Assembly: GCA_019058365.1 (NCBI GenBank)
Contig: JAHPZE010000002.1
Coordinates: 1-64,000 of the forward strand
Length of the DNA stretch: 64,000 nt
Reading direction: 5' to 3'
From: Promethearchaeota archaeon
GTDB taxonomy: Archaea; Asgardarchaeota; Lokiarchaeia; Sigyniarchaeales; SOKP01
A program made the position numbers and the translations under genes. Positions 4,709 to 59,516 of the stretch are shown in pieces (position 1 is the first letter of the stretch; each line of letters starts with the position of its first letter). Below the pieces are notes generated by a model, which was not told the origin of the DNA, ran no database searches, and saw nothing but the letters and a program-made list of their open reading frames with translations.

Positions 4709-4734
4709 AGATAATTAAATTGAGTTGATGTTAA

Positions 4735-5214
4735 ATGCCTACTTGGGGTTATTCTTTTGTAGAACATAAGTATGATGCTGATAGAATAGCAAAGGCATCT
4801 GGTCGAGATATTAGGATTAAACCTAAACATTCAAGAGAAATTTGTGCGGTCATTAAAGGTATGAAGGTAGATCAAGCAAAAAGCTATCTGGAAAAAGTAA
4901 TCAGAATAGAACAATCAGTGCCTTTTAGAAGGCATAAAAAAAAAGTTGCGCATAGAAATGATTTAGCGCAATTTAAATGGTATGCGGGAAGATATCCTCA
5001 AAAATCAGCAGCTAGAATTTATGAAATTCTCACATCTGTTGAATCAAATGCAGAATATAAAGGTTTAGATATTGATCTATGTCGGATTATTCATGCAGCA
5101 ACACATAGTGGCAGAATAATAAAGAGATTTATTCCAAGATCGCATGGACGCAGCACAGCAAAATTTAAACATCTTTCACATGTAGAAATAGTTATTTATG
5201 AATTCCCAAGTTAG
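4735..5214 (+). CDS. rpl22: 50S ribosomal protein uL22
   Basis: AGRYPQKSA, NAEYKGLD, PRSHGRST; operon position. Confidence 0.97.
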   Translation: MPTWGYSFVEHKYDADRIAKASGRDIRIKPKHSREICAVIKGMKVDQAKSYLEKVIRIEQSVPFRRHKKKVAHRNDLAQFKWYAGRYPQKSAARIYEILTSVESNAEYKGLDIDLCRIIHAATHSGRIIKRFIPRSHGRSTAKFKHLSHVEIVIYEFPS

Positions 5215-5264
5215 ATAATTTAATAATAAAATAGAGATTTTAATTTAACGATTATTGAGATAAA

Positions 5265-6053
5265 ATGAGTCCTCTAGTAAAGAATTTTATTGAACAAGGA
5301 ATTAAATTAATGCAAATAAATGAGTATCTACGTTCAGAGTTAGTTCGTGCAGGATTTGCAGGTGTTGAGCTACAGCGTACTCCATTGGGCGTAAGAATCA
5401 CATTGAAAACTTCCCGCCCTGGTTTAGTAATTGGTAAAGGGGGAAAGAGAATTCAAGAAATTACAGATGTCCTTCAAGACCGATTCGGTTTAGAAATGCC
5501 CCAGATTGAAGTCGAAGAGGTCGTAGAACCAGATTTAGATGCTCAAATAATGGCAGAAAGATTAGCTTATTCACTAGATCGAGGACGCCATTACCGTAGA
5601 GCAGGTTATTATATATTGAGAAAAGTGATGGATGCAGGGGCACGTGGTGTAGAGATAATTGTATCTGGAAAAGTTACTTCACAGCGTGCTCGTACACAGA
5701 TATTCAGAGCAGGTACAATGTCTAAATCAGGTCAACCAGCAGCAGCTGTTGATAAAGGTGTTGCTCAATGTATACAGAAATCAGGAGTCTTAGGAATAAT
5801 TGTGAAGATTATGCGAGCTAATATTAAAATGGGAGATGATGTTAAAATCAAGGATGATCTATTAACTAAAGCTCAAGCAGAAGAGGAAGCAAAATTGGCA
5901 AAAACACGAGTAGACTATATGATTGAACAAGAAGAGGGTGTTTTAAGTGAGGAAGATAAGAAATTACTTGATGAAGTTGATGAAGAAGAAATTTCTGAGA
6001 TTACGTTAACTCCTACTACTGAGGAGGAACATGAGGAGTCAGAGAAAGAATAA
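5265..6053 (+). CDS. rps3: 30S ribosomal protein uS3 with acidic C-tail
   Basis: KH domain RPGLVIGKGGKRI, GARGVEIIVSGK. Confidence 0.97.
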   Translation: MSPLVKNFIEQGIKLMQINEYLRSELVRAGFAGVELQRTPLGVRITLKTSRPGLVIGKGGKRIQEITDVLQDRFGLEMPQIEVEEVVEPDLDAQIMAERLAYSLDRGRHYRRAGYYILRKVMDAGARGVEIIVSGKVTSQRARTQIFRAGTMSKSGQPAAAVDKGVAQCIQKSGVLGIIVKIMRANIKMGDDVKIKDDLLTKAQAEEEAKLAKTRVDYMIEQEEGVLSEEDKKLLDEVDEEEISEITLTPTTEEEHEESEKE

Positions 6054-6081
6054 TTATAATAATATAAAATTGTGGTAAAAT

Positions 6082-6279
6082 ATGGATATTTTAACAGCTA
6101 AAAAAGTACGAGAAATGGATGAGAGAGAAAGGGAGAGAAATTTGATTAGTTTGCGAGAGGAATTAATGATGTTATATTCAATGCAAACTGGTGGAGGTCT
6201 TTCTGATAATCCTGCTAAAGCAAAATTATTAAGAAAACAAATAGCAAGAATACTTACTGTGATGAAAGAAGGGGAATGA
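6082..6279 (+). CDS. rpl29: 50S ribosomal protein uL29
   Basis: NPAKAKLLRKQIARILTV; operon position. Confidence 0.95.
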   Translation: MDILTAKKVREMDERERERNLISLREELMMLYSMQTGGGLSDNPAKAKLLRKQIARILTVMKEGE

Positions 6280-6593
6280 TGTTAAATCCAAATTTTATAA
6301 TATACCATGATTTGATAGGCATTTATGCCTTAATTAAAACAAAATCAAAATTAAATGATAACAAATTCTCGCCTATAGGCGTTGTGATTGATGAAACAAG
6401 AGATATGTTAATTACTGAAAAAAATGATAAAATAAAGAAATATATTAAAAAAGATCATACATTTAGGTTTAAACTTCCGAATTACGAGAACGATGAAATG
6501 TATTGTTATGTAGAAGTTTCAGGAAATAAGCTTATTGGCCTTCCTGTAAATAGACTAAGAAGTTTAAAGAAAAAGAGAAGGTTAAAAAAATGA
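6276..6593 (+). CDS. rnp1: Ribonuclease P protein component 1 (Rpp29/Pop4)
   Basis: HDLIG, GVVIDETRDML, VSGNKLIGLPVNRL; canonical position between uL29 and uS17. Confidence 0.88.
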   Translation: MMLNPNFIIYHDLIGIYALIKTKSKLNDNKFSPIGVVIDETRDMLITEKNDKIKKYIKKDHTFRFKLPNYENDEMYCYVEVSGNKLIGLPVNRLRSLKKKRRLKK

Positions 6594-6943
6594 GTAGAAA
6601 TATTGGTATTCCAGGTGTAAATCCTCCTAAAGTAAAAGCAGAGGAATGTAAAGATCAATTCTGTCCCTATCATGGAAATACACGAATTAGGGGAAAAATT
6701 ACTAAAGGAATTATAGTTAGTAAAAAATCAAGAAATACAGTCATTATAAGACGTGATTATGTTCAATTTGTAAAAAAATATCAAAGATATGAGCGTCGTA
6801 ATACTCATCTAGCGTGCCATTTACCAAATTGTTTAAGTCATGAAATTGATCTTGGAGATTTAGTAAGAGTTGGCGAATCTCGAAAAATTTCTAAAACAAA
6901 AGCTTTTATTGTAATAGAAAAAATTTCTCGTGGTGCAGAATAA
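6590..6943 (+). CDS. rps17: 30S ribosomal protein uS17
   Basis: CKDQFCPYHG, KYQRYERR, GESRKISKTKAF. Confidence 0.97.
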   Translation: MSRNIGIPGVNPPKVKAEECKDQFCPYHGNTRIRGKITKGIIVSKKSRNTVIIRRDYVQFVKKYQRYERRNTHLACHLPNCLSHEIDLGDLVRVGESRKISKTKAFIVIEKISRGAE

Positions 6944-7369
6944 ATGGGAACTAGAAGAAAATTAGGAAGAAAAACATATACTAAACCTCGCACCAGTTAT
7001 GGTTTATGTAACGGATCAAGAATCATTATTGCTGATAATTCTGGAGCAAAAATAGCTGAAATTATTAATGTAGACGGTTTCAAGACACGATTAAGAAGAT
7101 TACCTAAAGCATCTGTTGGAAGTGTATGTACTGTTACAATAAAAAAAGGGAAACCCGAATTACGAGGAAATATAGTAAAAGCAGTAATAGTTAGACAGAA
7201 AATGATTTACAGAAGGATAGATGGTACAAGACTTTGTTTTGAAGATAATGCTGGAGTAATTGTAACAAAAGAAGGTGATCCAAAGGCTACAGAGATTCGA
7301 GGGCCAATAGCAAGAGAAGCTGCAGAAATGTTTCCAAGACTAGCATCAATATCTTCATTAATAATATAA
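6944..7369 (+). CDS. rpl14: 50S ribosomal protein uL14
   Basis: ADNSGAK, FEDNAGVIV, IRGPIAREAA. Confidence 0.97.
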   Translation: MGTRRKLGRKTYTKPRTSYGLCNGSRIIIADNSGAKIAEIINVDGFKTRLRRLPKASVGSVCTVTIKKGKPELRGNIVKAVIVRQKMIYRRIDGTRLCFEDNAGVIVTKEGDPKATEIRGPIAREAAEMFPRLASISSLII

Positions 7370-7383
7370 ATGGAGGATTTAAA

Positions 7384-7812
7384 ATGAAAGTTGAATCAAA
7401 ACAACCAAGAAAGCAAAGGAAAGCTCTCTATAATTATAAAAATCATAACCGCTCAAAGTTACTCAGCACTAGGGTAGCTGATTTTCTTCGTGATGAATAT
7501 GGAATAAAAAGACTCCCACTTAGAGTTGGAGATCAAGTTAGAGTATGTAGAGGTGAATTTAAGGATTTTGAAGGTGAAGTTCTCGAGATTACAAAAAATC
7601 TAAGATGTAAGATAAAAGAATGTACTTTTGAAAAAACTGATGGAACTCAATTTCATCCTACAATTCATATAGCAAACTTGGTGATTTCTAAATTTACAAA
7701 AGAAAAGAAAATGGACCCATGGCGTGCGAATATGATTGAACGAAAAGCTTTATATGGATTTTATGAAGAGGAATTAAAAGCTCCAAAAAAAGAAAAAGAG
7801 GTAGAAAAATAA
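7384..7812 (+). CDS. rpl24: 50S ribosomal protein uL24
   Basis: SKQPRKQRK, LRVGDQVRVCRGEFK (KOW). Confidence 0.96.
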   Translation: MKVESKQPRKQRKALYNYKNHNRSKLLSTRVADFLRDEYGIKRLPLRVGDQVRVCRGEFKDFEGEVLEITKNLRCKIKECTFEKTDGTQFHPTIHIANLVISKFTKEKKMDPWRANMIERKALYGFYEEELKAPKKEKEVEK

Positions 7813-7815
7813 AAA

Positions 7816-8571
7816 ATGACTCATCATGGTAACCAAAAAGTGTTGAAAAGGCTTAACACACCTTCTTTCTTACAAATTAAAAGAAAACATGGAAAATTTT
7901 TCATAAAACCTGCTCCTGGACCACATCCCAGTAGATTTAGCTTACCACTTCTTCATATTGTTAGAGATCTTCTCAAAACTGTTGATACTCACAGAGAAGC
8001 GAAAAAGTTAATTGGTTTAGGTTACTTTAAAGTCGATGGAAAAATAGTGAGGAATAAATCATTTCCTGTAGGTTTAATGGATGTATTGTCAATTGAGAAA
8101 ATGAATAAACATTATAGAGTACTACCAGATTCTCATCAGGGCCTAATTTTGCATGAAATTCCTGAACAAGAGAGTTTATTTAAATTGTGCAGAATAAATA
8201 ATAAAACTTCTGTAAAGGGGGGTCACATTCAATTAAATTTGCATGATGGGAGAAATATTTTAATAAAAGTTCAAGATCCTAAAAATCCTAAGGAGGATAT
8301 CTATAAACGAATGGATGTTCTTAAAATTTCTATCCCCGAACAAGAAATCAACAAAATTTTGAAATTTAAAGAAAATAATATTGCTATCATTATGTCTGGG
8401 AAAAACATCGGGCAAGTTGGAAAAATTATTAATATATTGAAACGTTTTGGTCCCAAAGCAAGTACAGTTTCAATTCAGCGTAATGGGGATCATACGGAAA
8501 CATTATATGATTATACATTTATTATTGGAGAAGATAATTCTGAAATTGATTTACCTAGTATTGAAAATTAA
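7816..8571 (+). CDS. rps4e: 30S ribosomal protein eS4
   Basis: KPAPGPH, FPVGLMDV, QLNLHDGRNI. Confidence 0.97.
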   Translation: MTHHGNQKVLKRLNTPSFLQIKRKHGKFFIKPAPGPHPSRFSLPLLHIVRDLLKTVDTHREAKKLIGLGYFKVDGKIVRNKSFPVGLMDVLSIEKMNKHYRVLPDSHQGLILHEIPEQESLFKLCRINNKTSVKGGHIQLNLHDGRNILIKVQDPKNPKEDIYKRMDVLKISIPEQEINKILKFKENNIAIIMSGKNIGQVGKIINILKRFGPKASTVSIQRNGDHTETLYDYTFIIGEDNSEIDLPSIEN

Positions 8572-8597
8572 TAAAAAAAAAATTAAGTGAGAAAAAG

Positions 8598-9191
8598 ATG
8601 TCCACTAAAACAAAAAGAAAAATACCCGATGCTCTCTCAAAAATTTTTGAGGAAAATTGGAAAAACCCTATGGAAAAACCATATTTAGAAAAAGTAGTGT
8701 TGAATATAGGAGTTGGAAGTGGAGGAGAGGAATTAGAAAAGGCTGCAACCGTTTTAGAAACGATTACAGGTCAAAAAGCAATTAAAACACTTTCAAAAAC
8801 AAATATAAAAGAATTTAATTTAAGAAAAGGTCGTCCAATTGGGACTAAGGTAACCATTAGGGGTCAAAATGCGGAAAAATTGATTAAAAAATTATTAATT
8901 GTAAATAATAATAAAATTTTAAGAAAAAGTTTTGATAATTATGGAAATTTTGGTTTTGGAATAACAGAACATATTTCAATCCCCGGTATAGAATATGATA
9001 ACACGATTGGAATATGGGGCTTAGATTGTGTGGGAAGGATTGTAAGGCCTGGAATGAGAGTAAAATTTCGACGAAAAGCTCGTACTAAAGTTCCAAAACA
9101 TCATTACGTGTCCCGAGAAGAAACCCAATATTTTTTGATACAAAAATTAGGGGTAGAAATTGTAGAAAAACTAAATTTAGAATATATATAA
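8598..9191 (+). CDS. rpl5: 50S ribosomal protein uL5
   Basis: NPMEKPYLEKVVLNIGVG, GNFGFGITEHI. Confidence 0.97.
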   Translation: MSTKTKRKIPDALSKIFEENWKNPMEKPYLEKVVLNIGVGSGGEELEKAATVLETITGQKAIKTLSKTNIKEFNLRKGRPIGTKVTIRGQNAEKLIKKLLIVNNNKILRKSFDNYGNFGFGITEHISIPGIEYDNTIGIWGLDCVGRIVRPGMRVKFRRKARTKVPKHHYVSREETQYFLIQKLGVEIVEKLNLEYI

Positions 9192-9210
9192 ATCATTATG
9201 GTGAAAAAAG

Positions 9211-9360
9211 ATACCACAAGGTAAACATCACGGTAAAGGTCAGAGAGAGTGTAGAAGATGTCATACTCACAGAGGTGTAATCCGGCGTTATGGATTATAT
9301 CTCTGTAGAAGATGTTTTTATGAAATAGGAAAAGAAATTGGATTTAAAAGGTTTGAATAA
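9211..9360 (+). CDS. rps14: 30S ribosomal protein uS14 (49 aa, not in the ORF track); starts at ATA
   Basis: (M)[48 protein letters not shown]. In-frame TGA at 9202-9204 leaves no ATG/GTG/TTG; GGTGA 6 nt before the ATA. Confidence 0.93.
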
Positions 9361-9392
9361 GAATTAAAAAGAAAGGAAAAAAGTGATAATCT

Positions 9393-9776
9393 ATGGTAAA
9401 TACAGTATCAGATGCTTGTTGTGCTCTAAAAAATGCTGAAAGAGCACGTAAAAGAGAAGTAATAATCAGTCCGGCTTCTAATCTTCTTCAACAAATTCTT
9501 CGAATATTTCAAAAACATGCTTATATTGGAGAATTCGAGAGGTATGATGATGGAAGACAGGGAAAATTCAAGATCGCTTTACTAGGTAAAATAAATGAAT
9601 GTGCTGGTTTAATAAGGTTGAATTATAAGGTATCAAAATATGACATGTTAGAAAGAAATCTATTACCTGCTCCTGGTTTAGGGATAATAATCTTAACAAC
9701 AAATCAGGGAATAATGACAATTAAGGAAGCAGAAGAAAAGCAAATTGGTGGTCACACTTTATGTTATATCTATTAA
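9393..9776 (+). CDS. rps8: 30S ribosomal protein uS8
   Basis: YIGEFERYDDGRQGK, LTTNQGIMT. Confidence 0.97.
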   Translation: MVNTVSDACCALKNAERARKREVIISPASNLLQQILRIFQKHAYIGEFERYDDGRQGKFKIALLGKINECAGLIRLNYKVSKYDMLERNLLPAPGLGIIILTTNQGIMTIKEAEEKQIGGHTLCYIY

Positions 9777-9798
9777 ATTAAATTAAGGTAAAAATAAA

Positions 9799-10377
9799 AT
9801 GGTAAAAATAGCATTCTTTCAAGAAACATTGGAAATCCCTGAAAATGTTAAAGTTACTCTAGAGGGAGATCATCATATTAGAGTAAAAGGACAAAACGGA
9901 GATATTACGAAAAATTTCTCTCATATAAGAGGTATTAATGTCTCAATTAAGGGGAATAAAATTTTCTTTACAACCAATTTTCCAAAAAGTGCAACTCTCG
10001 CATTAATTAAAACTGTAGTTAGTATTATTAATAATTTAATTATCGGGGTTCAAACAAATTATAAATATATATCAAAAATTTGCTACTCACATTTTCCTTG
10101 TAATTGTGAAGTGAAATCAGATAAAAGAGAGATTCATGTCATTAATTTCTTAGGAGAAAGAGCCCCAAGAAAGGCAAAGTATCCAGAAAATGTAAATGTG
10201 GAAGTAAATGGAGATGATGTACTTTTTATAGGACCTGATAAAGAATCATTAGGACAAGCAGCAGCTAATGTTAAAAGAGCTTGTCGTATTAGGAAAAAAG
10301 ACCCACGAGTATTTCAGGATGGAGTTTATCTATACAAAAAATTACTTGGAGACGAAATTATCTGGGAAATAACTTAA
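9799..10377 (+). CDS. rpl6: 50S ribosomal protein uL6
   Basis: YSHFP, NFLGERAPR, KDPRVFQDGVY. Confidence 0.97.
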   Translation: MVKIAFFQETLEIPENVKVTLEGDHHIRVKGQNGDITKNFSHIRGINVSIKGNKIFFTTNFPKSATLALIKTVVSIINNLIIGVQTNYKYISKICYSHFPCNCEVKSDKREIHVINFLGERAPRKAKYPENVNVEVNGDDVLFIGPDKESLGQAAANVKRACRIRKKDPRVFQDGVYLYKKLLGDEIIWEIT

Positions 10378-10392
10378 AGTGAGGTATTTATA

Positions 10393-10884
10393 ATGGTACA
10401 AGAAAAAAGATTAATAGAACTACGAAAAGTAATAAATAAGAAAAAACCTTCATTTAGACGAGTTGAGTCATGGAGATATAAAAGAGTAAAAGATCCATGG
10501 AGAAAAGCTAGAGGTATTGATTCACAAACTAGAAAGAAAGAAAAATCAGGCGTTAAATCTCCTACAATAGGATATCGAACCCCAAAAAAAGTGAGAGGCT
10601 TACATCCATCTGGATATGTAGAAGCAAAAGTCACTACAATCCAAGATTTTAGGAATTTAAATAATAAACAACATGCAATTAAACTTTCTGGTAAATTAGG
10701 TGCTAAAAAACGAATTGCGCTTATAGATTATTGTCAAAAAAGAGGTTTTAAAGTATTAAATCTTGGGATATCTCAAAGAGAAATTGAAAGTTTAGAAGCA
10801 ATGGTAGAAACGCCTATTTCTGATATGGAAGAAGAAGAATTTATTGATGTTGACGAATTAGAAGAGTCTTTAGGGGGAAAATAA
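10393..10884 (+). CDS. rpl32e: 50S ribosomal protein eL32 with acidic C-tail
   Basis: WRKARGIDS, GYRTPKKVRGLHPSG. Confidence 0.97.
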   Translation: MVQEKRLIELRKVINKKKPSFRRVESWRYKRVKDPWRKARGIDSQTRKKEKSGVKSPTIGYRTPKKVRGLHPSGYVEAKVTTIQDFRNLNNKQHAIKLSGKLGAKKRIALIDYCQKRGFKVLNLGISQREIESLEAMVETPISDMEEEEFIDVDELEESLGGK

Positions 10885-10885
10885 A

Positions 10886-11341
10886 ATGAATTTAAAGCCA
10901 CAGAGAAGGATGGCCGCTGACATTCTTAAATGCGGAGAAAATAGAGTATACTTTGATCCATATTTAATCGAAGATGTTTCACTAGCAATTACTCGAGAAG
11001 ATGTTCGCAATTTAATAAAACAAGGCGTTATACAGAAAAAATATAAAAAAGGGATCTCAAATTATAGGAAAAATATAAACCATGCTAGGAAGAAAAAAGG
11101 AAGAGCCAGAGGATTAGGAAAAAGAAAGGGCACCAAACATGCAAGAACTCCAAAGAAAAGAGCCTGGATTAGACGCATTCGACCAATTAGACGAGAACTG
11201 AAAAAACTTAGAGAAAGAAAATTAATTACCATATCAAATTATCGGAAATTATATAGAAATGCTAAAGGCGGAATGTTTACTAGTGTAGCTCAATTAAATA
11301 GATATATTAAAGAAAAAGATTTAATAAGAAGAGGTCGCTAA
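10886..11341 (+). CDS. rpl19e: 50S ribosomal protein eL19
   Basis: QRRMAADILKCGENRV, GKRKGTKHARTPKK. Confidence 0.97.
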   Translation: MNLKPQRRMAADILKCGENRVYFDPYLIEDVSLAITREDVRNLIKQGVIQKKYKKGISNYRKNINHARKKKGRARGLGKRKGTKHARTPKKRAWIRRIRPIRRELKKLRERKLITISNYRKLYRNAKGGMFTSVAQLNRYIKEKDLIRRGR

Positions 11342-11344
11342 AAA

Positions 11345-11938
11345 ATGGCAAAAGGTCCAAGGTATAAAAGATCATTTCGACGGCGATATGATGGTAAAAC
11401 GGATTATCATAAAAGATTAAAATTATTAAAATCGAGAAAATTAAGAGTAGTCATACGAGCTTCAAACGATCATATAAGAGTTCAAATTGTGGAATCTAAA
11501 TTTGGAGGAGATAATGTCTTAATCTCTGCATTTTCTAAAGAATTAGCCTCAAAATACGGTTGGAGTGCTAATAGTGGAAATATTCCGGCAGCATATTTAA
11601 CTGGGTACTTAGCAGGTTTAAGGGCAAAAACTAAAAATATTCAAGATGCTATATTTGATTTAGGTATTTTTTATCATAAAAATCGAGTACTTGCTGCTTG
11701 TAAAGGATTAATAGATACTGGACTTATTATACCATATCGTGAAGAATTTTTTCCCGAAGAATTAAAGGAAAGAATTAAAGGTATTCATATTGAGAATTAC
11801 GCAAAAAACCTAAAATCAAACGAGCCGGAAAAATATGAACAGATATTCTCCGGTTACTTAAAAAAGCAAAAATTAAATCCACAGAAAATAAGCCAAATGT
11901 TTTCGGATTCATTGAAACAGATTGAAAATAAAACTTAA
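11345..11938 (+). CDS. rpl18: 50S ribosomal protein uL18
   Basis: FRRRYDGKTDYHKRLKLL, NIPAAYLTGYLAG. Confidence 0.97.
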   Translation: MAKGPRYKRSFRRRYDGKTDYHKRLKLLKSRKLRVVIRASNDHIRVQIVESKFGGDNVLISAFSKELASKYGWSANSGNIPAAYLTGYLAGLRAKTKNIQDAIFDLGIFYHKNRVLAACKGLIDTGLIIPYREEFFPEELKERIKGIHIENYAKNLKSNEPEKYEQIFSGYLKKQKLNPQKISQMFSDSLKQIENKT

Positions 11939-11952
11939 AAAGTGAAAATATC

Positions 11953-12567
11953 ATGAGTCGATTAAGAAATATGGATGAAGAATGGGTTCCTAAAACCAAA
12001 TTGGGTGAACTTGTTCAACAAGGTTTAATTACATTAGATAAGATATATCAAAATAATTTAGTTGTTAAAGAAAAAGAAATCATTAATATTTTGCTTCCAC
12101 AATTACAGGAATCTGTGACGGATATAAAAATGGTTCAGCAGATGACTGCGAGCGGGCAGCGCTCAAAATTTAAAGCAGTTGTGCTTGTAGGGGCAGATGG
12201 TTTTATTGGAATCGGTTCAGCAAAGAGTAGAGAAGTTGGACCAGCAATTAGAAAGGCAATTGATAGAGCAAAACTTTCAGTTATTCCAGTTCTAAGAGGT
12301 TGTGGAAGTAAAGAATGTGGATGTGGAGGAACACATAGTATTCCTTTTAAGATTAAAGGAAAATGTGGTTCAGTTAGAATTCAACTTATTCCTGCTCCAG
12401 CAGGTGTAGGATTAGCTTGTGCAGATAAAGTAAAACCAGTATTAAAATTATGTGGGATTGAAGATATTTGGAGCAAAACTTTTGGTGATACTAGGACAAG
12501 TGAAAACTTAGTTAAAGCTACATTTGATGCTCTTAAAATAGCTCATAAATTTAACTTTAACATATAA
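11953..12567 (+). CDS. rps5: 30S ribosomal protein uS5
   Basis: WVPKTKLG, GCGSKECGCGGTHSIP, LIPAPAGVG. Confidence 0.97.
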   Translation: MSRLRNMDEEWVPKTKLGELVQQGLITLDKIYQNNLVVKEKEIINILLPQLQESVTDIKMVQQMTASGQRSKFKAVVLVGADGFIGIGSAKSREVGPAIRKAIDRAKLSVIPVLRGCGSKECGCGGTHSIPFKIKGKCGSVRIQLIPAPAGVGLACADKVKPVLKLCGIEDIWSKTFGDTRTSENLVKATFDALKIAHKFNFNI

Positions 12568-12584
12568 AAAGGAGTGGTGTTTAA

Positions 12585-13109
12585 ATGTCTATGGCAAAAA
12601 AGAAATCAAAATTAAAACAAACAGAATTTACATCAAAATTGTATTTCGCTGTTCGTATTAGAGGGGCCCCGGGTATGAAGGGAAAAATTTTAGATACCTT
12701 AAAGATGCTAAGAATGCATAAAGTCAATCATGGTGTGCTTGTATGGGGTAGTCCCTCATATAAAGGAATGTTAGTAAAATGTAAAGATTATATTGCTTAT
12801 GGAGAAATTGATGAAAAAACCTTAATTAGACTATTAAGAGTACGAGGAAAAGTAGAAGGGAATGTATCACTAACAGAGGAGCATATTAAAAATTTAACCA
12901 ATTACAAAAATTTTAAAGAATTAGCAAAAGCATTACTAAATGGAGAAATAAAATATCGAGAAAAAGAAATATACAAAATTAAACCAGTATTCCGATTACA
13001 TCCTCCAAGAAAAGGACATCGCGGATCTATTAAAAAGCATTATAAGGAAGGAGGAACGCTTGGTGATATTGGACTATACATCAATGAATTAATTCATAAA
13101 ATGTTATAA
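12585..13109 (+). CDS. rpl30: 50S ribosomal protein uL30 (archaeal L7-like)
   Basis: AVRIRG, KPVFRLHPPRKG. Confidence 0.96.
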   Translation: MSMAKKKSKLKQTEFTSKLYFAVRIRGAPGMKGKILDTLKMLRMHKVNHGVLVWGSPSYKGMLVKCKDYIAYGEIDEKTLIRLLRVRGKVEGNVSLTEEHIKNLTNYKNFKELAKALLNGEIKYREKEIYKIKPVFRLHPPRKGHRGSIKKHYKEGGTLGDIGLYINELIHKML

Positions 13110-13126
13110 TAAAAAGGTGAAGGAGT

Positions 13127-13609
13127 ATTACAAGAAAATTTCCAAAAAAGGTCCGTAAAATGAGAGGCAGACGTACTCATGGTTATGGAAAAGTAGGTCA
13201 ACATAGAAAAACGGGACAACGCGCTGGTAGAGGTAAAACTACTCAATGGAAAAAAAGTAAAAAAAGCTATTATTTAAAACAAAAAGAACTCGGATTTCCA
13301 GACCCAGATTGGGATATGGGAAAAAAAGGGTTTAAAAGACCACAAGATATTGTTAGAATTTATCATGATAATACAATTAATGTTAAGGATTTAGATCATA
13401 GAATTGATAGTTACGTTCTGAATAATAAAGCCACAAAATCTGGAAATACTTATAACATAAACATGAATGAAATTAATATTCAAAAAGTATTGGGAAAAGG
13501 AGATGTAAATAAAGTAATTAACATAACAGTAAATAAAGCATCTCAAAAAGCTATTGAAAAAGTAGAAGCTGCTGGTGGTAAAATTACGTTATTATCTCAA
13601 GCAGATTAG
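13127..13609 (+). CDS. rpl15: 50S ribosomal protein uL15; probable ATT start at 13127 (track starts at ATG 13160)
   Basis: MRGRRTHGYG, KVLGKG, AIEKVEAAGG. The upstream in-frame TRKFPKKVRK matches the usual uL15 N-terminus; GGTGA 6 nt before the ATT. Confidence 0.92.
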   Translation: MTRKFPKKVRKMRGRRTHGYGKVGQHRKTGQRAGRGKTTQWKKSKKSYYLKQKELGFPDPDWDMGKKGFKRPQDIVRIYHDNTINVKDLDHRIDSYVLNNKATKSGNTYNINMNEINIQKVLGKGDVNKVINITVNKASQKAIEKVEAAGGKITLLSQAD

Positions 13610-23028: not shown

Positions 23029-23185
23029 GGCCCTTGACGGTCGGAATTGCTTTTAGATCGTATCGATCTGCAACGATAAGTGGTCTCTGACGCTGGGCTT
23101 CAAACCCAGTTATCCTGCGGAGGGGTAGGAGTTCGATAACGGTTAGAAATAATCTGATCTTCGAAAATCTCCTCGAGGGCCGCCA
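23029..23185 (+). tRNA. selC: tRNA-Sec (UCA) with two BHB introns (23046-23079 in the D-arm; 23138-23167 in the T-loop); CCA encoded; 93 nt mature
   Basis: 9-bp acceptor GGCCCTTGA/TCGAGGGCC, 7-bp D-stem with TGGT loop after splicing, 6-bp anticodon stem with TCA at 23100-23102, long variable arm, 4-bp T-stem, G73; directly upstream of SepSecS. Confidence 0.95.
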
Positions 23186-32601: not shown

Positions 32602-32871
32602 ATGCCCCGTCCCGGTTTAAGATCTAAAACCCAAGCAAGGAAAAAATTAAGCACGCCTGGGAATCAAAATGTCACCCATTATTGGAGAAAAAAACCCAAA
32701 AGAGCAAATTGTGCGATTTGTAAAAAACCTCTTCAGGCTGTTCCAAGATTACGACCTTCCAAAATGGTTAAAACCCAATTAACCTCAAGAAGGGCAAATA
32801 GAATGGAAAGTGGAAGGTATTGTGCAAACTGTCTTCAGACTTTAATAAAAGAGACCGTTTGGAGTCAATAA
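32602..32871 (+). CDS. rpl34e: 50S ribosomal protein eL34
   Basis: MPRPGLRS, TPG, CAICKKPLQAVPRLRP, CANCL. Confidence 0.95.
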   Translation: MPRPGLRSKTQARKKLSTPGNQNVTHYWRKKPKRANCAICKKPLQAVPRLRPSKMVKTQLTSRRANRMESGRYCANCLQTLIKETVWSQ

Positions 32872-32973
32872 AATTTCTCTGATTTTTTTTAATTTCTTTT
32901 GCTTTAATAATAAAAATCATAAATATTCTTCTTCTTAATTGAATTAATATTTAAATTAAAATAACCAAATAAA

Positions 32974-33507
32974 ATGATTATAACAATTTCAGGACCTCAT
33001 GGAACTGGAAAATCTACAATAGGAAAATTAATTGCAGAAAAGTTTGGAATCCAATATTATAGTACTGGACAAGCTTTCAGAGATCTAGCACAAGAAATGA
33101 ATATGACTTTAGAAGAATTTACTAAATATGCAGAAAAACATCCTAAAATTGATGAAAAGCTAGATGATAAAATAAATGAAATTGCTCAAAGAGGGAATAT
33201 AATTATTGATAGTCAATTAAGTGGGCATATTCTGAAAACTATAGCAGATTTGAAAATACTGTTAATATGCCCTTTAGAAATCAGAGTTAAACGGATGGCT
33301 GAAAGAGATAATACAAATTATGAAAAAAAGTTAAAAGAAACCAAATTAAGAGAAAAATCAGAATTGGAACGATTTCATAGTCTCTATGATATCGATTTGA
33401 GTGATCAAGAGGCTTTAAAAAAAATATATGATCTTATCATAAACACAGAAAACCTCACAATCGAAGATATCGTAGAAAAAATTCTTACAAAATTAAAAAA
33501 ATTGTAA
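32974..33507 (+). CDS. cmk: Cytidylate kinase (archaeal)
   Basis: ITISGPHGTGKST, GQAFRDLA, RVKRMAERD; eL34-cmk-eL14 synteny. Confidence 0.93.
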   Translation: MIITISGPHGTGKSTIGKLIAEKFGIQYYSTGQAFRDLAQEMNMTLEEFTKYAEKHPKIDEKLDDKINEIAQRGNIIIDSQLSGHILKTIADLKILLICPLEIRVKRMAERDNTNYEKKLKETKLREKSELERFHSLYDIDLSDQEALKKIYDLIINTENLTIEDIVEKILTKLKKL

Positions 33508-33647
33508 AAATCTTTTTAGTTTTGAAAAACACAAAAATTTTATTTTAATATTGATTTATAATAATACTATAAATTAATTACGTTTACTGGATGTTAAAAA
33601 TAGCCAGTAATTAAGAATTATTTAAAAATAATTTGGTGACAAATTAT

Positions 33648-33920
33648 ATGAGCGTATATGATATTGGTAGACTATGCGTTAAAACTATGGGAAGAGAAGC
33701 AGGATTTCACTGTGTAATTGTTGATATCATTGATAAAAACTACTTGCTAATTGATGGATTAAAAGTCCGAAGAAGAAGAGTAAATTATAGACATATCGAA
33801 CCAATCACAGAAACAATAGAAATTAAAAAAGGAGCATCACATGAGCATGTAGAAACTGCGATCAAAAAGTCTAAATTAGAAAAGAAAATGAATGAAGTTA
33901 TCTCTATCCCAATCAAATAG
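33648..33920 (+). CDS. rpl14e: 50S ribosomal protein eL14
   Basis: IGRLCVKTMGREAG, VIVDIIDKNY, VRRRRVN. Confidence 0.95.
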   Translation: MSVYDIGRLCVKTMGREAGFHCVIVDIIDKNYLLIDGLKVRRRRVNYRHIEPITETIEIKKGASHEHVETAIKKSKLEKKMNEVISIPIK

Positions 33921-33968
33921 TCAGAATAAAGATTAACATAAAAAACATTTTATTTTCATTTTTTAAAT

Positions 33969-34101
33969 GCAACGGTTGCCTAGCCCGGTACGGCGCTGGC
34001 TTGGAGTGGGAAGTTTCACCCAGAAAGCCAGTGTGTGAATGCACTCGGGGGTTCAAATAATAAGAATCATCTTCTTATTGGAATAAATCCCTCCCGTTGC
34101 G
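33969..34101 (+). tRNA. tRNA-Ser (GGA) with two BHB introns (34007-34025 at 37/38; 34057-34086 in the T-loop); 84 nt mature
   Basis: Acceptor GCAACGG/CCGTTGC, anticodon stem CTGGC/GCCAG with GGA at 34003-34005, long variable arm GTGT-GAAT-GCAC, G73. Confidence 0.93.
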
Positions 34102-34126
34102 TATTTTTCTCTATAGATTTATTGGA

Positions 34127-34729
34127 CTAAACATCGGGAAATTCTAAAGATTTTGCTTTTTGCCCTGCGAACATTCCACCCATACCACCAGAAGCCTGTG
34201 ACTGAAGCTTTAGCAATCTTTGTGTTAATGTATTAATTCCTAATGAACATAGGAAATACCACGAAGTAAAATTAATCCAAACTGAACCAGCACGGATAAA
34301 ATTTCCTATTAAAGGAATATCATTAGCATTCATAGGACTAAGGGCAACTGGAGCTCCTCTAAACAACATATTCACAATACCAAAAATTATTATCATTGGA
34401 ACAAACGTAATACAAGTTGGTTTCATCCTTTGAAGTGTCATTTTTTGTTGAGACTTTTTTATCATTGTATCTTTCCTTTCCCATCTTTTTCTAGCTTTTT
34501 TATAACGTTCAGGGTCTATTTCAGCCAAATCTATGATCTTTTGTTTTTCTTCTTCATGAGCTTTGGTTTGTGTTTGTTTACGATTTATCTCATTTGTATC
34601 TACCAACCACCTTGTTAAAAGAGTGCTTATTAATGCTGTTGTTATAGCTAATAATAAAACAAATATCATTGTTCCCGGAGGAGTGGTAATCAAATCCAAA
34701 AATGCATTTTGCAAGATTGAAAACAACAT
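34127..34729 (-). CDS. DUF106 / EMC3-TMCO1 family membrane insertase
   Basis: TM, coiled coil, MKPTCITFVP, WYFLCS; follows secY. Confidence 0.9.
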   Translation of the reverse strand: MLFSILQNAFLDLITTPPGTMIFVLLLAITTALISTLLTRWLVDTNEINRKQTQTKAHEEEKQKIIDLAEIDPERYKKARKRWERKDTMIKKSQQKMTLQRMKPTCITFVPMIIIFGIVNMLFRGAPVALSPMNANDIPLIGNFIRAGSVWINFTSWYFLCSLGINTLTQRLLKLQSQASGGMGGMFAGQKAKSLEFPDV

Positions 34730-34890
34730 ATCAATATTTATTTATATTGAAATGGTAATAAACTTTTCAGATGAGGTTCTCTTCAGAAAAATCTATCAAG
34801 AATTTTAAATATTCTAATTAAAGGTATTTTTATCGTTATAATATTTACCATTTTGGCTATAATTGCCAACTATAACAGAAAAAATATTTT

Positions 34891-36369
34891 TTAGTCCATT
34901 CCTAGCAGGGCTCTCATACCCGGATACTGACTTGCAGCTAATTCTTTCGAAATCGTCTCGGCATAATTGTGGATGATTCCGATGGCAATTAGTAATCCCG
35001 TGCCTGAAGACAATGCTCTTAAAGTGTCGGCAGAAAAACTTATCACCGCAATAATGATTCCGTTTAATATAATTAATGTTGGGATATATCGTTTTAAAAT
35101 TCTCTCGATTATTTTTGATGAACTTCGGAATCCAGGAACTTCCATTTTTGAATCTATTATTTGATCCGCGATGTCACGGGGGGCGAGTCCTGAGACTTCA
35201 ACCCAGACTCGGCCGAGCAATATACAAAGAAAAATCAATACTACCAGATAAAAGATTGCTCGGAATGGATCTGCTACTACTTGATCAATTCCCAATGGTG
35301 GAGTAAGTAAATATATCAACCCAGATGTAGGTATGAGTTGGTTTCCTGAAACAGTACCAGTCCCTTCTTGAATACGAAATACTCCTATCAAATTGACCCA
35401 AAAATCAGGAATGAGTCCTCCATTTTTCGCTCGTATTCCTGAATAAGGTCCCGCGAACAATTGCCCAAAGAATAAAACGTTAGCATATAATGCATTAACC
35501 AAAATTACGGGAATATTTGAAACATAAAGCAATTTCATTGGATATTTCGATTTAAAACCTCGATAGCCTCGATATGCAAGAGGGATTTCAATGCGCGTAG
35601 ATTCAAACCAAATTACCACTAGAAAAATAATTATGGTGGTAACGATACCTAATAACGAGGGAAATGAACCTCTTAATAAAATCTGCCCTAGATTTGTGTC
35701 AGATTTTCCATCAAATAACACGGTAAAGAAAGCGATAACTATACCTCTAGGGAGATTATCTTGAGCAGGAATCCAACTGAAACAATTCCAAAATATTTGA
35801 CCGGAAACACCTGCTGCTATAAACAAGGAAACTCCGCTGCCAAGACCCCATCCTTTTTGAAGCAATTCATCTAATAATATTATTATTATTCCTGCAAACA
35901 GTAATTGAAAGAAAATAAAAAAAGCTCCCTGTATGCCTATTTCTGACAATTTCCCAAATGCTCCTCCCGCAATATATGCTATAGAATTGAAAATGGTTAA
36001 AAACACTGCCATCACTTTTTGAGCTCCACTAAACATAGCTCTGTCGTATGGATCGGACATGTTTACATTAATTATTTTAGACCCTAGAAGCAGTTGCATA
36101 ATAAGACCCGCTGTGACTATCGGACCTATACCTAATTCCGTTAATGTTCCTCTCTGACTAGCAAGAATAACTCTTAACCAATAGAAATAATCAGTTGAAT
36201 CTGCAAGGTTTACACCATATAGAGGAATATTACTTAATATTATATAAATAATAAGTACAACAGCTGTCCAAATAAACTTTTCTTTAAAAGTAACCTCGCG
36301 TTGCGGCTGTTTGATTTCCGGCATTGCTTTTACGAATGGTGTGAAGAATTTAAGGAACTTTCCAGCCAT
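34891..36369 (-). CDS. secY: Preprotein translocase SecY/Sec61 alpha
   Basis: LTELGIGPIVTAG, KGWGLGSGVSLFIA, LLYVSNIPVIL, VPGFR, SGTGLLI. Confidence 0.98.
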   Translation of the reverse strand: MAGKFLKFFTPFVKAMPEIKQPQREVTFKEKFIWTAVVLIIYIILSNIPLYGVNLADSTDYFYWLRVILASQRGTLTELGIGPIVTAGLIMQLLLGSKIINVNMSDPYDRAMFSGAQKVMAVFLTIFNSIAYIAGGAFGKLSEIGIQGAFFIFFQLLFAGIIIILLDELLQKGWGLGSGVSLFIAAGVSGQIFWNCFSWIPAQDNLPRGIVIAFFTVLFDGKSDTNLGQILLRGSFPSLLGIVTTIIIFLVVIWFESTRIEIPLAYRGYRGFKSKYPMKLLYVSNIPVILVNALYANVLFFGQLFAGPYSGIRAKNGGLIPDFWVNLIGVFRIQEGTGTVSGNQLIPTSGLIYLLTPPLGIDQVVADPFRAIFYLVVLIFLCILLGRVWVEVSGLAPRDIADQIIDSKMEVPGFRSSSKIIERILKRYIPTLIILNGIIIAVISFSADTLRALSSGTGLLIAIGIIHNYAETISKELAASQYPGMRALLGMD

Positions 36370-36735
36370 ATTTAATCAGCAACGTAAGTATTTTTGAATA
36401 GTTAGCGATAATTGCACTAACTTATTAATATCAAATTCTTAAATTTGAAGTGTAATTTTAAAAAAATAGAATTTTAAAAAAAGTTTGCGATTTAATAATG
36501 TATCTGATATGATGATGATTCAAATATTTAAAGTAGAATTATGAAATATAAAAAAAGTAAATAAAAAAATATCTATCTTTTATGTTATAAAAACCAAAAT
36601 TAATTAAATAAAATTCTAAAGATTTAATTTAAAATTGGTTTATATAAATCTTCCTTTTCTTTTATTTTTTTATTAATATTTATTATTTTATTTGCCAAAT
36701 TGCTTTCTTAGTTAATGAATTGTTTATTAGTGTCC

Positions 36736-37026
36736 TTAGAAAAGGGATCCAATCCCCGTAGGCTCTTCTTCGACTGCTTCTTCTTTTTCCTTCTTTTTTT
36801 CCTTCTTTTTTTCAGTTTTTTCTCCGGCAGGAGCTACCATTACCGGCATAGACCCAGCAGATTTTATAATTTCATCAATATCTGCTTGTTTTAGACCAGC
36901 AATTAATTTAACGATTTGATCTTTATCAACTTTCGCACCTGCGGCAGTTAATACTTTTTCTACATTCGCTTCGTTAATTTTTCCTCCAGCTTTATGTAAT
37001 AATAAGGCAGCGTAAATACTTTCCAT
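36736..37026 (-). CDS. rpl12: 50S ribosomal stalk protein P1 (aL12)
   Basis: MESIYAALLLH, acidic hinge, GIGSLF end. Confidence 0.96.
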   Translation of the reverse strand: MESIYAALLLHKAGGKINEANVEKVLTAAGAKVDKDQIVKLIAGLKQADIDEIIKSAGSMPVMVAPAGEKTEKKKEKKKEKEEAVEEEPTGIGSLF

Positions 37027-37101
37027 AATATCTAACCTCTTTTTTATTTTTTTATCTTAATATTAGTAATTTTAATTGAAATATCAAAAAATCTTAATTT
37101 T

Positions 37102-37995
37102 TTATCCAAAAAGACCTCCAATACCAACTTCTTCTTCCTCCTCGGTTTCATCTTCAGCTTTTTTTTCTTCAACTTTAGATTCTGGTTCAGCCGATAATTC
37201 GATCTCCTCTCCAAAGATCATTGCTTTTATTGTATTAACCTCAGATACAGCTTTCCGAATATATTCTTCTGTCATTTCCTCTAAATAGAATGGCATTTCA
37301 AAAAGAATTCCTAGTGCCTCTCTATAAACTTTAGTGAAATCTTGTTTGAATTTTATCATATCCATATATAAGATTTCTTCAGGGATTATTTCACCGTCGT
37401 TCCAAGCAAAGTGAATTTTTATCAATGATTCTATTGGTGTAATTCCCAGCTTTTTTAAAACCGCTGCTTGCTTAACATTAACCAAATCACCAGCTTTATG
37501 GGTTCTTGTATCTTCACGAACATGTATCGTATCATTCATAATTCTCGTTGGCAATCGCAATGTCATATTCAATTCACTAATTACTTGTCCTGTGGGTAAA
37601 CCAGTATCACCTGCAGGAACCCATATATCTACAGGAGTAACTTCATTGGGTTTTGCTGGTACCATCCACTCATTTTCAAGAAATATCTTTTTTAATTCAA
37701 ATAGATCAATATTTGTAAATACAAGACTAGATTGCCCAGGAATATGATTTGCAAATTCATCCAAGTTTTTCTTTTTAGCTTCACTTTTAAATTGTTCTAT
37801 TGCTCGTAATTGAAGTGATTTTTTAGACATTCTAAATACTGCTTTTCCTCTCAAAATTTTCCTCATTGTTTGAAATTGCATGTCGCTTATATGAGCAACA
37901 TCAATTACAGCGATGTTCTTATAATTTTTAAATAAATCAACTAAATGATTAATTTCATCTATCTTCCATTGTGGTATATGTTTTTTTTTAATCAT
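37102..37995 (-). CDS. rpl10: 50S ribosomal protein uL10 (P0); start taken as ATG 37995
   Basis: IPQWKIDEI, VPAGDTGLPTG, LKKLGITP, GIGGLFG end. Confidence 0.95.
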   Translation of the reverse strand: MIKKKHIPQWKIDEINHLVDLFKNYKNIAVIDVAHISDMQFQTMRKILRGKAVFRMSKKSLQLRAIEQFKSEAKKKNLDEFANHIPGQSSLVFTNIDLFELKKIFLENEWMVPAKPNEVTPVDIWVPAGDTGLPTGQVISELNMTLRLPTRIMNDTIHVREDTRTHKAGDLVNVKQAAVLKKLGITPIESLIKIHFAWNDGEIIPEEILYMDMIKFKQDFTKVYREALGILFEMPFYLEEMTEEYIRKAVSEVNTIKAMIFGEEIELSAEPESKVEEKKAEDETEEEEEVGIGGLFG

Positions 37996-37999
37996 TATT

Positions 38000-38728
38000 T
38001 CACACCTCAATACTTTTTAGGAACTCTTCTGTCACTTTCACGGGTTTTCCCATTGTAGATTTAAGATACATAGATTTAAAGTTGTTAAATTTGTGTGGCA
38101 TTTGATCAGCAATGAAATTCACTACAGCTTTCATATTTTCATATAACTTTTGCCTATCCAGAGATTTTTTACCGATCTTAGCGAAGATAATGGGTTGCTT
38201 TTTCATTTGAATCCTAATTATTTTTTTATATCGTTCATAAGCTACATTTAAATCTTCTACGCTAGAAATAATCCCATATCCAGTAGGAAAAGGTTTTGGC
38301 ATTTTACCAACGGGTCCAAGATATCTAGCTAAATATCGAGCGACATCTCTCATCATTTTATCTTCCACAACAAAAAATTCATATCTTTTAGCAAATTTTT
38401 TCTTGTATTTTTTCTCTTCATTATTCAAATTAATCAAACCGCTTGAATCTAAAGTTTCCACCCCAAGTTTTTTCGCTTCTTGTAAAATCTCATCTGACGC
38501 AATTACACAAATATTAGGTCTGTCATTTGTAATTACTTCATTTGATAAGATAATTTCTTTATCAATTCTGCTTTTTGGATCGTTTAGATTAATATCTTTA
38601 ATATTAATGATGATATCAATAGACTCATCGAATTTTCTGACTTTGCCTTTAAACCCTTCTTTCTTCATTATAGAAAAATCAATAGCAGCGTTTAATGATT
38701 TCTTTAATAATTTATCATCGACTTTCAA
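38000..38728 (-). CDS. rpl1: 50S ribosomal protein uL1
   Basis: RKFDESIDI, LGPVGKMPKP, YLKSTMGKPV. Confidence 0.96.
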   Translation of the reverse strand: MKVDDKLLKKSLNAAIDFSIMKKEGFKGKVRKFDESIDIIINIKDINLNDPKSRIDKEIILSNEVITNDRPNICVIASDEILQEAKKLGVETLDSSGLINLNNEEKKYKKKFAKRYEFFVVEDKMMRDVARYLARYLGPVGKMPKPFPTGYGIISSVEDLNVAYERYKKIIRIQMKKQPIIFAKIGKKSLDRQKLYENMKAVVNFIADQMPHKFNNFKSMYLKSTMGKPVKVTEEFLKSIEV

Positions 38729-38734
38729 ATTTTC

Positions 38735-39330
38735 TTAATCACCTCTTAAGATGTCATCAAATTCCCCTTTATCTATTTTTTTTTGGATAGCTCTTGGATC
38801 TTGTCCTTCTACTGTTAACCCCACTGATAATGCTGTTCCTAACACTGTTTTTATGCCTGCTTTAATTGTTTTATCTAAAAATTTATCTCTTTTAGCCTTC
38901 ACTACATTTTGAACTTGATCAAGTGTCAAATTTCCTATTTTTGTTTCTGAACAACTAGCACTCCCTTTTTCAACACCTACCTCTTTCAGCAATAATGATG
39001 CAGTAGAAGGTGTTTCTATAAAAATTTCAAATTGCTTTGTCTCCGGATCACATTCAATTCTAACGGGTACGGTTAGTCCCCTAAATACCATTGTCTGCTT
39101 GTTGATTTCGTCAACCACATCTTTAATATGTGCATCGAAAATCGAAATAATTTTCGTTTATGCCTGTGGGACCAACAGCAGGACCTTTACCATAATTTGA
39201 CAAAAGCGATATGCTTTATGCAATAGGCGGCCCTCCTGATGCATTTGGGGTCTAATCGAAATGATTATTAAAGATATACACTCCCACCAGTCACAAGAGC
39301 CTTTACAACAATTTTTCCTTTTTCACTCAC
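38735..39330 (-). CDS. rpl11: 50S ribosomal protein uL11, four exons (39330-39281, 39243-39223, 39186-39158, 39129-38735); 164 aa after splicing
   Basis: Joined exons give [46 protein letters not shown]..., the canonical uL11 N-terminus, in frame with the 39118 ORF; GTG start 6 nt after GGTGA. Confidence 0.92.
39130..39157 (-). other. rpl11 pre-mRNA intron 3 (28 nt, near-canonical BHB)
   Basis: Central GCAU/AUGC, intron helix CGAAAAU/AUUUUCG, bulges AA^A and AC^A. Confidence 0.9.
39187..39222 (-). other. rpl11 pre-mRNA intron 2 (36 nt, relaxed BHB)
   Basis: Exon helix AGGGCC/GGUCCU, central GCCU/UGGU (3 of 4 paired), bulges AU^U and AA^A; contains in-frame TAA. Confidence 0.82.
39244..39280 (-). 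other. rpl11 pre-mRNA intron 1 (37 nt, relaxed BHB)
   Basis: Central helix UGGG/CCCA, bulges AG^U and AA^U; frameshifting and contains in-frame TAA. Confidence 0.85.
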
Positions 39331-58726: not shown

Positions 58727-58926
58727 TTACTCCTTTTTAAATAGATTTCCACATCCCCCACACTTTACATTTTTTGCATAAACCGGAGTACCCTGCTTTA
58801 GCAGTATGCTGAAAGAGCAATACTTATACTGTAGTAAAGTACATTACTTTTATCCGGTTCTTCATGAAGCATGCGTGGATTATCATTTCCACATTTAGGA
58901 CATTTTACTCTTTTATAATCAGCCAT
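58727..58926 (-). CDS. Small Zn-ribbon protein, two exons (58926-58826, 58796-58727); 56 aa after splicing; absent from the ORF track
   Basis: MADYKRVKCPKCGNDNPRMLHEEPDKSNVLYYSM|QGTPVYAKNVKCGGCGNLFKKE; the two CxxC halves are in different frames unless 29 nt are removed. Confidence 0.82.
58797..58825 (-). other. Pre-mRNA BHB intron (29 nt) in the Zn-ribbon gene
   Basis: Intron helix AGUAU(U)GCU/AGCAUACU, central CAGU/GCUA (3 of 4), bulges AU^A and AA^G, exon helix GUACUUU/AGGGUAC. Confidence 0.8.
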
Positions 58927-58985: not shown

Positions 58986-59516
58986 TTAGGTTTTTAAGTG
59001 GGTTTTTATAACAATCTCTCTTACAATTTGCTGGACTTTTTTCTTAGTTGTATCAATAACTATTTCTGCTGCTTCTTCATATAAGGATAATCGAAAATTT
59101 AGAATTTTCTTTATTTCTCTCTTAAAATTTTCTTTATTTATGAGAGGTCTTATTTCTATTCCATTATTTTTTGATCTTTTATAAATTTCCTCCAAACTAG
59201 CCTTTAAGAGGATAATATGACAATTTTTCTTTAAATTATCTAAATTAATCTTATTCAGAACTACGCCACCCCCACATGAAATTACAACTTTGTCTAATTC
59301 AGAGACTTTTTCATAGACAGAACTTTCATATTCTCTAAATTTGCTTTCTCCCTCTTCATCAAAAATTTGTGGAATAGTTTTTCCAGTTTTTTGAATTATT
59401 AGCTGATCAGTTTCAATAAATAGATAATCATCACCAAGATATTTAGCTAAAGCTCTACCTACAGTTGTTTTTCCAGTAGCCATAAAACCAATAAGAGCAA
59501 TGGAATCTTTAAGCAT
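58986..59516 (-). CDS. aroK: Shikimate kinase (bacterial type)
   Basis: LIGFMATGKTTVG, GESKFREYE, ISCGGGVV, RPLI. Confidence 0.94.
   Translation of the reverse strand: MLKDSIALIGFMATGKTTVGRALAKYLGDDYLFIETDQLIIQKTGKTIPQIFDEEGESKFREYESSVYEKVSELDKVVISCGGGVVLNKINLDNLKKNCHIILLKASLEEIYKRSKNNGIEIRPLINKENFKREIKKILNFRLSLYEEAAEIVIDTTKKKVQQIVREIVIKTHLKT

What the first reader, a model, noticed from the sequence alone, without database searches (positions are those of the whole stretch)
58727..58926. Second, independent mRNA intron hidden in an unannotated Zn-ribbon gene
Seen in sequence: the minus strand encodes CPKCG... in one frame, ending at TAA, and ...CGGCG in another frame. A 29-nt segment (58825-58797) forms an 8-bp intron helix, a CAGU/GCUA central helix (3 of 4 paired), AUA and AAG bulges, and a 7-bp exon-exon helix. 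Canonical cutting joins AGT AT|G CAG and gives a 56-aa CxxC...CxxC protein. Inference: mRNA splicing is not specific to rpl11, and gene callers miss such genes entirely.
Basis: partly seen in the sequence, partly recalled or inferred. Interest (0 to 1): 0.9.

Follow-up and report, generated by a model that had tools for sequence, protein, structure and literature searches.

The report
Mini-intron in Asgard zinc-protein gene
A 29-base insert splits a small zinc-binding protein gene of a Loki-type Asgard archaeon exactly where the tRNA-splicing enzyme would cut, and about 60 related genes show it is almost certainly a real mRNA intron, a type I found in print for only two archaeal genes and none in Asgard archaea.

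Summary
Confirmed. Removing window 58825-58797 (minus strand, 29 nt) gives a 56-aa CxxC...CxxC protein. Of 49 orthologs in the genus, 35 carry a 29-nt insert at the same site and 14 lack it and read YYSMQG; 9 orthologs from other families also lack it. The orthologs fix the junction at AT|G, which matches the EndA cut positions. Six of seven scored intron-stem pairs show compensatory changes. Exon 2 is under purifying selection (dN/dS 0.087), and no frameshift site is possible in all carriers. The motif is relaxed (HBh'/BHL), not canonical. The genome encodes two EndA subunits and RtcB. The protein is a stand-alone Loki-specific Zn domain of the kind found at the end of 2DGel gelsolins. Three relatives have further introns at three other sites of this gene; one is a diverged copy of this intron 17 nt downstream. 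The three uL11 introns in the window also hold up and are patchy among relatives. Splicing is inferred: no RNA data. Precedents: cbf5 and HVO_1309; I found no paper on Asgard mRNA introns. This scan has already noted this intron and this class in other Loki genomes.

The parts
58826..58926 (-). Exon 1 (101 nt): ATG to AGT AT; first CxxC knuckle and first strand of the beta-hairpin
   Evidence: dN/dS 0.085 among carriers
58797..58825 (-). 29-nt intron; stem 58824-58816 with 58810-58803, 5-nt loop; in-frame TAA at 58800-58798
   Evidence: same site and length in 35 genus orthologs, absent in 14 plus 9; covariation
58727..58796 (-). Exon 2 (70 nt): G CAG GGT to TAA; second CxxC knuckle
   Evidence: dN/dS 0.087
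58828..58831 (-). 5' (exon) strand of the 4-bp central helix, CAGU
   Evidence: 98.9% of cells paired across 23 sequences
58825..58827 (-). 5' 3-nt bulge AU|A, cut after nucleotide 2
   Evidence: unpaired in the consensus fold; matches the junction set by the orthologs
58799..58802 (-). 3' (intron) strand of the central helix, GCUA here (C.A mismatch); GCUG in 30 and ACUG in 3 of 35 carriers
58796..58798 (-). 3' bulge or loop AA|G, cut after nucleotide 2; first base is A in all 35 carriers
   Evidence: AA 29, AG 4, AC 2
58788..58842 (-). Exon-exon helix, 58842-58836 with 58794-58788, offset from the central helix by a 4x1 internal loop
   Evidence: 93% of cells paired, one pair changes on both sides at synonymous sites
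58986..59516 (-). Upstream shikimate-kinase-like gene, same strand; conserved neighbour used to confirm orthology (not part of the intron)
   Evidence: present upstream in 48 of the 49 genus loci; name inferred from sequence
39130..39280 (-). Three further introns of the same kind in uL11 (39280-39244, 39222-39187, 39157-39130); context, separate locus

Best explanation
The insert is a true pre-mRNA intron of the archaeal tRNA type. The transcript folds into a relaxed bulge-helix-bulge (HBh'/BHL). The genome's two-subunit splicing endonuclease EndA cuts after the second base of each 3-nt bulge, and RtcB joins AU to G, creating the Met codon of YYSMQG and a 56-aa Loki-specific zinc-ribbon protein. 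Unspliced mRNA would give a 42-aa fragment with one knuckle. SHOWN: exact insert boundaries, conserved and covarying structure, selection on both exons in the spliced frame, presence of EndA and RtcB genes. INFERRED: cleavage and ligation in vivo, protein expression, and gain of the intron inside this genus (other families lack it). The intron is most likely a near-neutral passenger held by the need to stay spliceable. A regulatory role is possible but has no support here.
For: 35 of 49 genus orthologs carry exactly 29 nt at this site (32 distinct sequences); 14 lack it. In the window the junction cannot slide, because the terminal bases differ from the flanking exon bases, and the invariant Met of the orthologs puts it on the EndA cut sites. 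96.9% of cells paired, 8 pairs changed on both sides (6 of 7 in the intron stem), 0 of 500 shuffles as high, slid controls 26-51%; RNAalifold finds the same central and intron helices unaided. dN/dS 0.085 and 0.087 in exons 1 and 2; intron p-distance 0.23 against pS 0.53-0.62. EndA: two subunits; the first keeps the Tyr, His and Lys that I recall as the catalytic triad and aligns with 3P1Z_B through the N-terminal loop region (E 1e-35); RtcB E 2e-170. Asgard EndA is reported as (alpha-beta)2 with the L1 loop that permits relaxed motifs (PMC5829648). Three other inserts in the same gene (L013, L023, L039) and three in uL11 also restore the protein when cut at bulge positions.
Against: No RNA reads or peptides were available. 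The exon-side helix is not adjacent, and this genome has a C.A mismatch in the central helix (shared with L003 at the GCUA strand, which pairs there with UAGU), so splicing may be inefficient here. A competing fold is close in energy for some window sizes. The covariation counts come from related genomes and are not independent events.
Confidence: 0.92

Rival explanations
1. Programmed -1 ribosomal frameshift inside the insert, giving a protein about 10 residues longer.
For: In this genome alone a -1 shift between positions -18 and +25 of the insert would join the frames.
Against: The permitted windows share no common site across the 35 carriers: L017 needs a shift before +4, L043 and L050 after +21. 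The peptide the insert would encode varies freely and has stops in both frames. No ortholog has extra residues.
Confidence: 0.02
2. Dead gene: a small insertion inactivated the gene and was inherited.
For: The unspliced frame stops early; several paralogous Zn domains in the genome could cover the loss.
Against: Exon 2 has dN/dS 0.087 in the spliced frame and keeps its CxxC in all carriers (two need their second intron removed); the insert keeps its length and covarying stem.
Confidence: 0.02
3. Translational bypass (ribosome hopping, as for T4 gene 60 or mitochondrial byps; recalled from memory) or excision at DNA level.
For: A hairpin with an in-frame stop, 29 nt long.
Against: No matching take-off and landing triplets flank the insert. 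It has no target-site duplication or paired DNA ends. The conserved pairing is exon-to-intron with the 3-nt BHB offset.
Confidence: 0.03
4. Assembly or sequencing artefact.
For: The genomes are draft assemblies (G000 has 54 contigs).
Against: Present in 35 separately assembled genomes with 32 different sequences.
Confidence: 0.005

Closest known systems
cbf5 pre-mRNA intron of Sulfolobales and Desulfurococcales (Watanabe 2002; Yoshinari 2006; Yokobori 2009, PMC2738675)
   Same: Short insert in a coding sequence that splits a codon; unconventional BHB with cuts between bulge residues 2 and 3; hetero-oligomeric EndA; presence and absence among relatives.
   Different: Other phylum and gene. cbf5 has one ancient site with a few losses; here one genus has several introns per gene at varying sites (four sites in this 56-codon gene, three in uL11). 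cbf5 splicing is shown by cDNA; this is not.
Haloferax volcanii HVO_1309 transcript (reviewed in PMC10485636)
   Same: EndA-cleaved mRNA that the review reports as mainly spliced in RNA-seq.
   Different: Different EndA type and lineage; single case; I did not compare its structure.
Non-canonical tRNA introns of Asgard archaea (PMC11291895; bioRxiv 10.64898/2026.10.13.758758) and Thermoproteales (Fujishima 2010, as cited there)
   Same: Same motif and predicted enzyme; repeated gains; patchy distribution.
   Different: Those are in tRNA genes, mostly Atabeyarchaeia and Jordiarchaeia; the preprint does not mention mRNA and found no general route of arrival. L023 gives one apparent copying event.
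Loki-specific C-terminal Zn domain of Loki2DGel (Akil et al. 2022, PMC9433394; sequence of PDB 7WHG chain G)
   Same: Host protein: profile match E 2.6e-13 to residues 288-334, single sequence E 1.7e-5; the paper notes stand-alone small proteins of this domain with a Tyr-tipped extended loop.
   Different: No gelsolin domains here; loop 3-4 residues longer; function of the domain unknown and it is not resolved in the crystal; no intron reported.

Membership tests
EndA-spliced (BHB-type) archaeal intron | 4-bp central helix of one exon strand and one intron strand | tested here: met
   98.9% of cells paired in 23 sequences; 3 of 4 pairs in this genome
EndA-spliced (BHB-type) archaeal intron | 3-nt bulge closed by an intron helix (HBh') | tested here: met
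   intron helix 99.4% paired, 6 of 7 pairs with compensatory change
EndA-spliced (BHB-type) archaeal intron | Exon-intron borders after the second base of each bulge | tested here: met
   junction set independently by 23 intronless orthologs
EndA-spliced (BHB-type) archaeal intron | EndA able to cut relaxed motifs, and a ligase, in the genome | tested here: met
   two EndA subunits and RtcB; loop region aligns with 3P1Z_B; activity not tested
EndA-spliced (BHB-type) archaeal intron | Spliced RNA or in vitro cleavage | not testable with these tools
   no transcriptome data
Canonical hBHBh' motif | Exon-exon helix directly closing the second bulge | tested here: not met
   4x1 internal loop before the 7-bp exon helix
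Group I / group II / spliceosomal intron | Ribozyme core, or GU-AG ends with a spliceosome | tested here: not met
   29 nt, ends A...AA; no Rfam hit in the window
Homing or retro-mobile intron | Encoded or supplied endonuclease or reverse transcriptase; multiple copies | tested here: inconclusive
   no ORF in the intron; PF00961 and PF00078 not found in G000 (other LAGLIDADG families not searched); no second copy in G000; one local copy in L023
Programmed -1 frameshift element | Conserved shift site that avoids stops in both frames | tested here: not met
   no common window across 35 carriers
Loki-specific 2DGel-type Zn domain | (CxxC)2 with an extended Tyr-tipped loop; sequence homology | tested here: met
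Loki-specific 2DGel-type Zn domain | Zinc binding, or any role with actin | not testable with these tools
   not shown for the family either

The most novel reading that the evidence does not exclude
This Loki genus hosts an actively spreading population of EndA-spliced mRNA mini-introns that copy themselves, at their splice boundaries, into new exon sites able to pair with their 3' end. The second intron in L023 would be such an event: 24 of 31 positions match the first intron, it follows the same CAGUAU exon end 17 nt downstream, and no exon sequence was duplicated. That would be a protein-free route of intron gain (reverse splicing by EndA/RtcB, then fixation in DNA) in the closest prokaryotic relatives of eukaryotes.
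Probability: 0.3. Interest if true: 0.88.

Novelty: new variant of a known kind. Interest (0 to 1): 0.7.

Why it matters
Archaeal protein genes are treated as intron-free apart from cbf5 and HVO_1309. This is a clean comparative case in Asgard archaea, with carriers and non-carriers in one genus, and the same window holds three more introns in a ribosomal protein gene. If splicing is confirmed, EndA and RtcB are routine mRNA-processing enzymes in this lineage, gene catalogues of these genomes miss or truncate genes, and intron gain and loss, left open by a 2026 preprint on Asgard tRNA introns, can be studied at four sites in one 56-codon gene. It does not imply ancestry of spliceosomal introns: the chemistry differs and the site appears to have been gained within the genus.

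Tried and rejected
Structure-only scans do not discriminate (174 hits in the window). A genome-wide structure-plus-ORF-join scan gave 123 hits against 110 expected, so it cannot count introns; it recovered this intron and two plausible others. An RNA model of this intron found no second copy in G000 (next best E 0.95). The gene tree (shikimate kinase plus exons) needs at least 3 changes but does not reject a single clade of carriers (p-AU 0.24), so gain versus loss within the genus is unresolved. A spliced-alignment script timed out. Pfam gave only weak zinc-ribbon hits below cut-off; the Atlas gave unnamed clusters under 0.9; Foldseek against the PDB gave no significant hit. The sigma-70 promoter scan is uninformative for an archaeon. 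ARAGORN and Rfam found nothing in the window. Nine literature searches found no report of Asgard mRNA introns; the library lacks most subscription papers.

Full report
Observation. On the minus strand an ATG at 58926 opens a frame with CPKCG that stops after 42 codons at a TAA inside the proposed insert; CGGCG lies in another frame. Removing 58825-58797 gives a 56-codon ORF ending at 58727. It is therefore a relaxed HBh'/BHL motif. The fold alone proves little: a loose scan finds 174 such motifs in the window.

Organism. No name was given. The host protein family is reported as Loki-specific, the genome has a 335-aa 2DGel-like protein with the same C-terminal domain, and an Atlas cluster is mostly Promethearchaeota. 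I infer a Loki-type Asgard archaeon.

Orthologs. Exon 1 and an intronless ortholog were searched in relatives. 49 of the 54 genomes of the genus gave the ortholog, 48 of them downstream of the same shikimate-kinase-like gene. Thirty-five, including this genome, carry exactly 29 nt at the same position; 14 lack it and read YYSMQG. Nine orthologs from other families lack it too and read YYSMQG (7), YYNMQG or YFSMQG. The Met is invariant, and in the window the junction cannot slide, so the protein fixes the cut at AT|G. The structure independently puts the EndA cuts, after the second base of each bulge, at the same two bonds.

Selection. On a gap-free alignment of 23 carriers, 96.9% of cells pair. 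Eight of 18 pairs show changes on both sides, six of them among the seven intron-stem pairs; no shuffle reached this and slid registers give 26-51% pairing. RNAalifold recovers the central helix, the bulge and the intron stem unaided. These genomes are kin, so the counts are not independent events, but several separate swaps are visible (L006/L009, L017, L019). Both exons are under purifying selection in the spliced frame (dN/dS 0.085 and 0.087), and the intron is more conserved than synonymous sites (0.23 against 0.53-0.62). The stop codons in the two frames leave no shift site common to all carriers, which rules out a shared programmed frameshift.

Machinery. The genome has two EndA genes and RtcB. 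One EndA subunit best matches 3P1Z_B (from memory, the Aeropyrum catalytic subunit) including the N-terminal loop region, and keeps the Tyr, His and Lys I recall as the triad; the other lacks the His. Asgard EndA is described as (alpha-beta)2 with the L1 loop that allows relaxed motifs (PMC5829648). Cleavage and ligation are inferred, not shown.

Host protein. The intact protein folds as a zinc ribbon with a long beta-hairpin (pLDDT 89) and the intron interrupts the hairpin tip. It matches the C-terminal domain of Lokiarchaeota gelsolin 2DGel. Akil et al. 2022 describe this as a Loki-specific potential Zn-binding domain found at many C-termini and also as stand-alone small proteins, with unknown role. 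G000 has at least nine other proteins with this domain. A protein-interaction role is my guess; a link to actin is not shown.

Beyond the finding. Three relatives have another insert further down the same gene, each at its own site and each restoring the protein when cut at bulge positions: L013 (30 nt), L023 (31 nt) and L039 (32 nt, in a gene lacking the first intron). The L023 insert is a relative of the first intron (model E 3e-6; 24 of 31 positions), follows the same CAGUAU exon end, has its own compensatory change, and duplicated no exon sequence. This single case suggests copying at splice boundaries. In G000 no second copy exists, and one reverse-transcriptase and one LAGLIDADG family were not found. 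The three uL11 introns in the window restore a normal N-terminus. Other families lack the Zn-gene intron, so it was probably gained in this genus; the tree cannot separate one gain from gain plus losses. Five intronless genes keep the AGT Ser codon of the carriers, while the other nine use TCN, which fits either precise loss or a primed target.

Prior knowledge. Published archaeal mRNA introns of this type are cbf5 (PMC2738675) and HVO_1309 (PMC10485636). Asgard tRNA genes are known to be intron-rich (PMC11291895; bioRxiv 10.64898/2026.10.13.758758, which does not mention mRNA). I found no paper on Asgard mRNA introns. This scan has noted this intron in several other genomes and the class in many other Loki genes; those notes are not counted as evidence.

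Verdict. A real EndA-type mRNA intron with about 92% confidence. The mechanism is known; the lineage, density and site turnover are not in the literature I could search. New variant of a known kind, interest 0.7.

Noticed in passing
L023 (G016:C20), locus 1423-1458, minus strand: Second, 31-nt intron in the same gene, 17 nt after the first; a diverged copy of it (24 of 31 positions) at another CAGUAU site. Candidate intron-copying event.
   Followed up: partly
L013 (G017:C52) and L039 (G030:C79), exon 2 region: Unrelated 30-nt and 32-nt hairpin inserts at two further sites; removal at bulge positions restores the protein.
   Followed up: partly
window 39130-39280, minus strand: Three introns in uL11 (37, 36, 28 nt), present in different combinations among relatives; likely GTG start near 39329.
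   Followed up: yes
G000:C9:585 (minus, 32 nt) and G000:C9:32935 (plus, 30 nt): Two more candidate introns; removal gives motifs I recall from class I aldolase and AMP/thymidine phosphorylase families. Not checked against orthologs.
   Followed up: no
window about 23030-23150, plus strand: tRNA-like sequence with a 34-nt hairpin insert at 23046-23079, missed by ARAGORN and Rfam.
   Followed up: no
G000 C15, C21, C27, C26, C13, C9, C35, C24, C29: At least nine other proteins with the same Loki Zn domain: a 2DGel, several with long N-terminal regions, and one stand-alone 65-codon frame.
   Followed up: partly
window 4133-13609 and 32602-39330: Ribosomal protein operons, secY and adk-like genes; ordinary archaeal context.
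   Followed up: no
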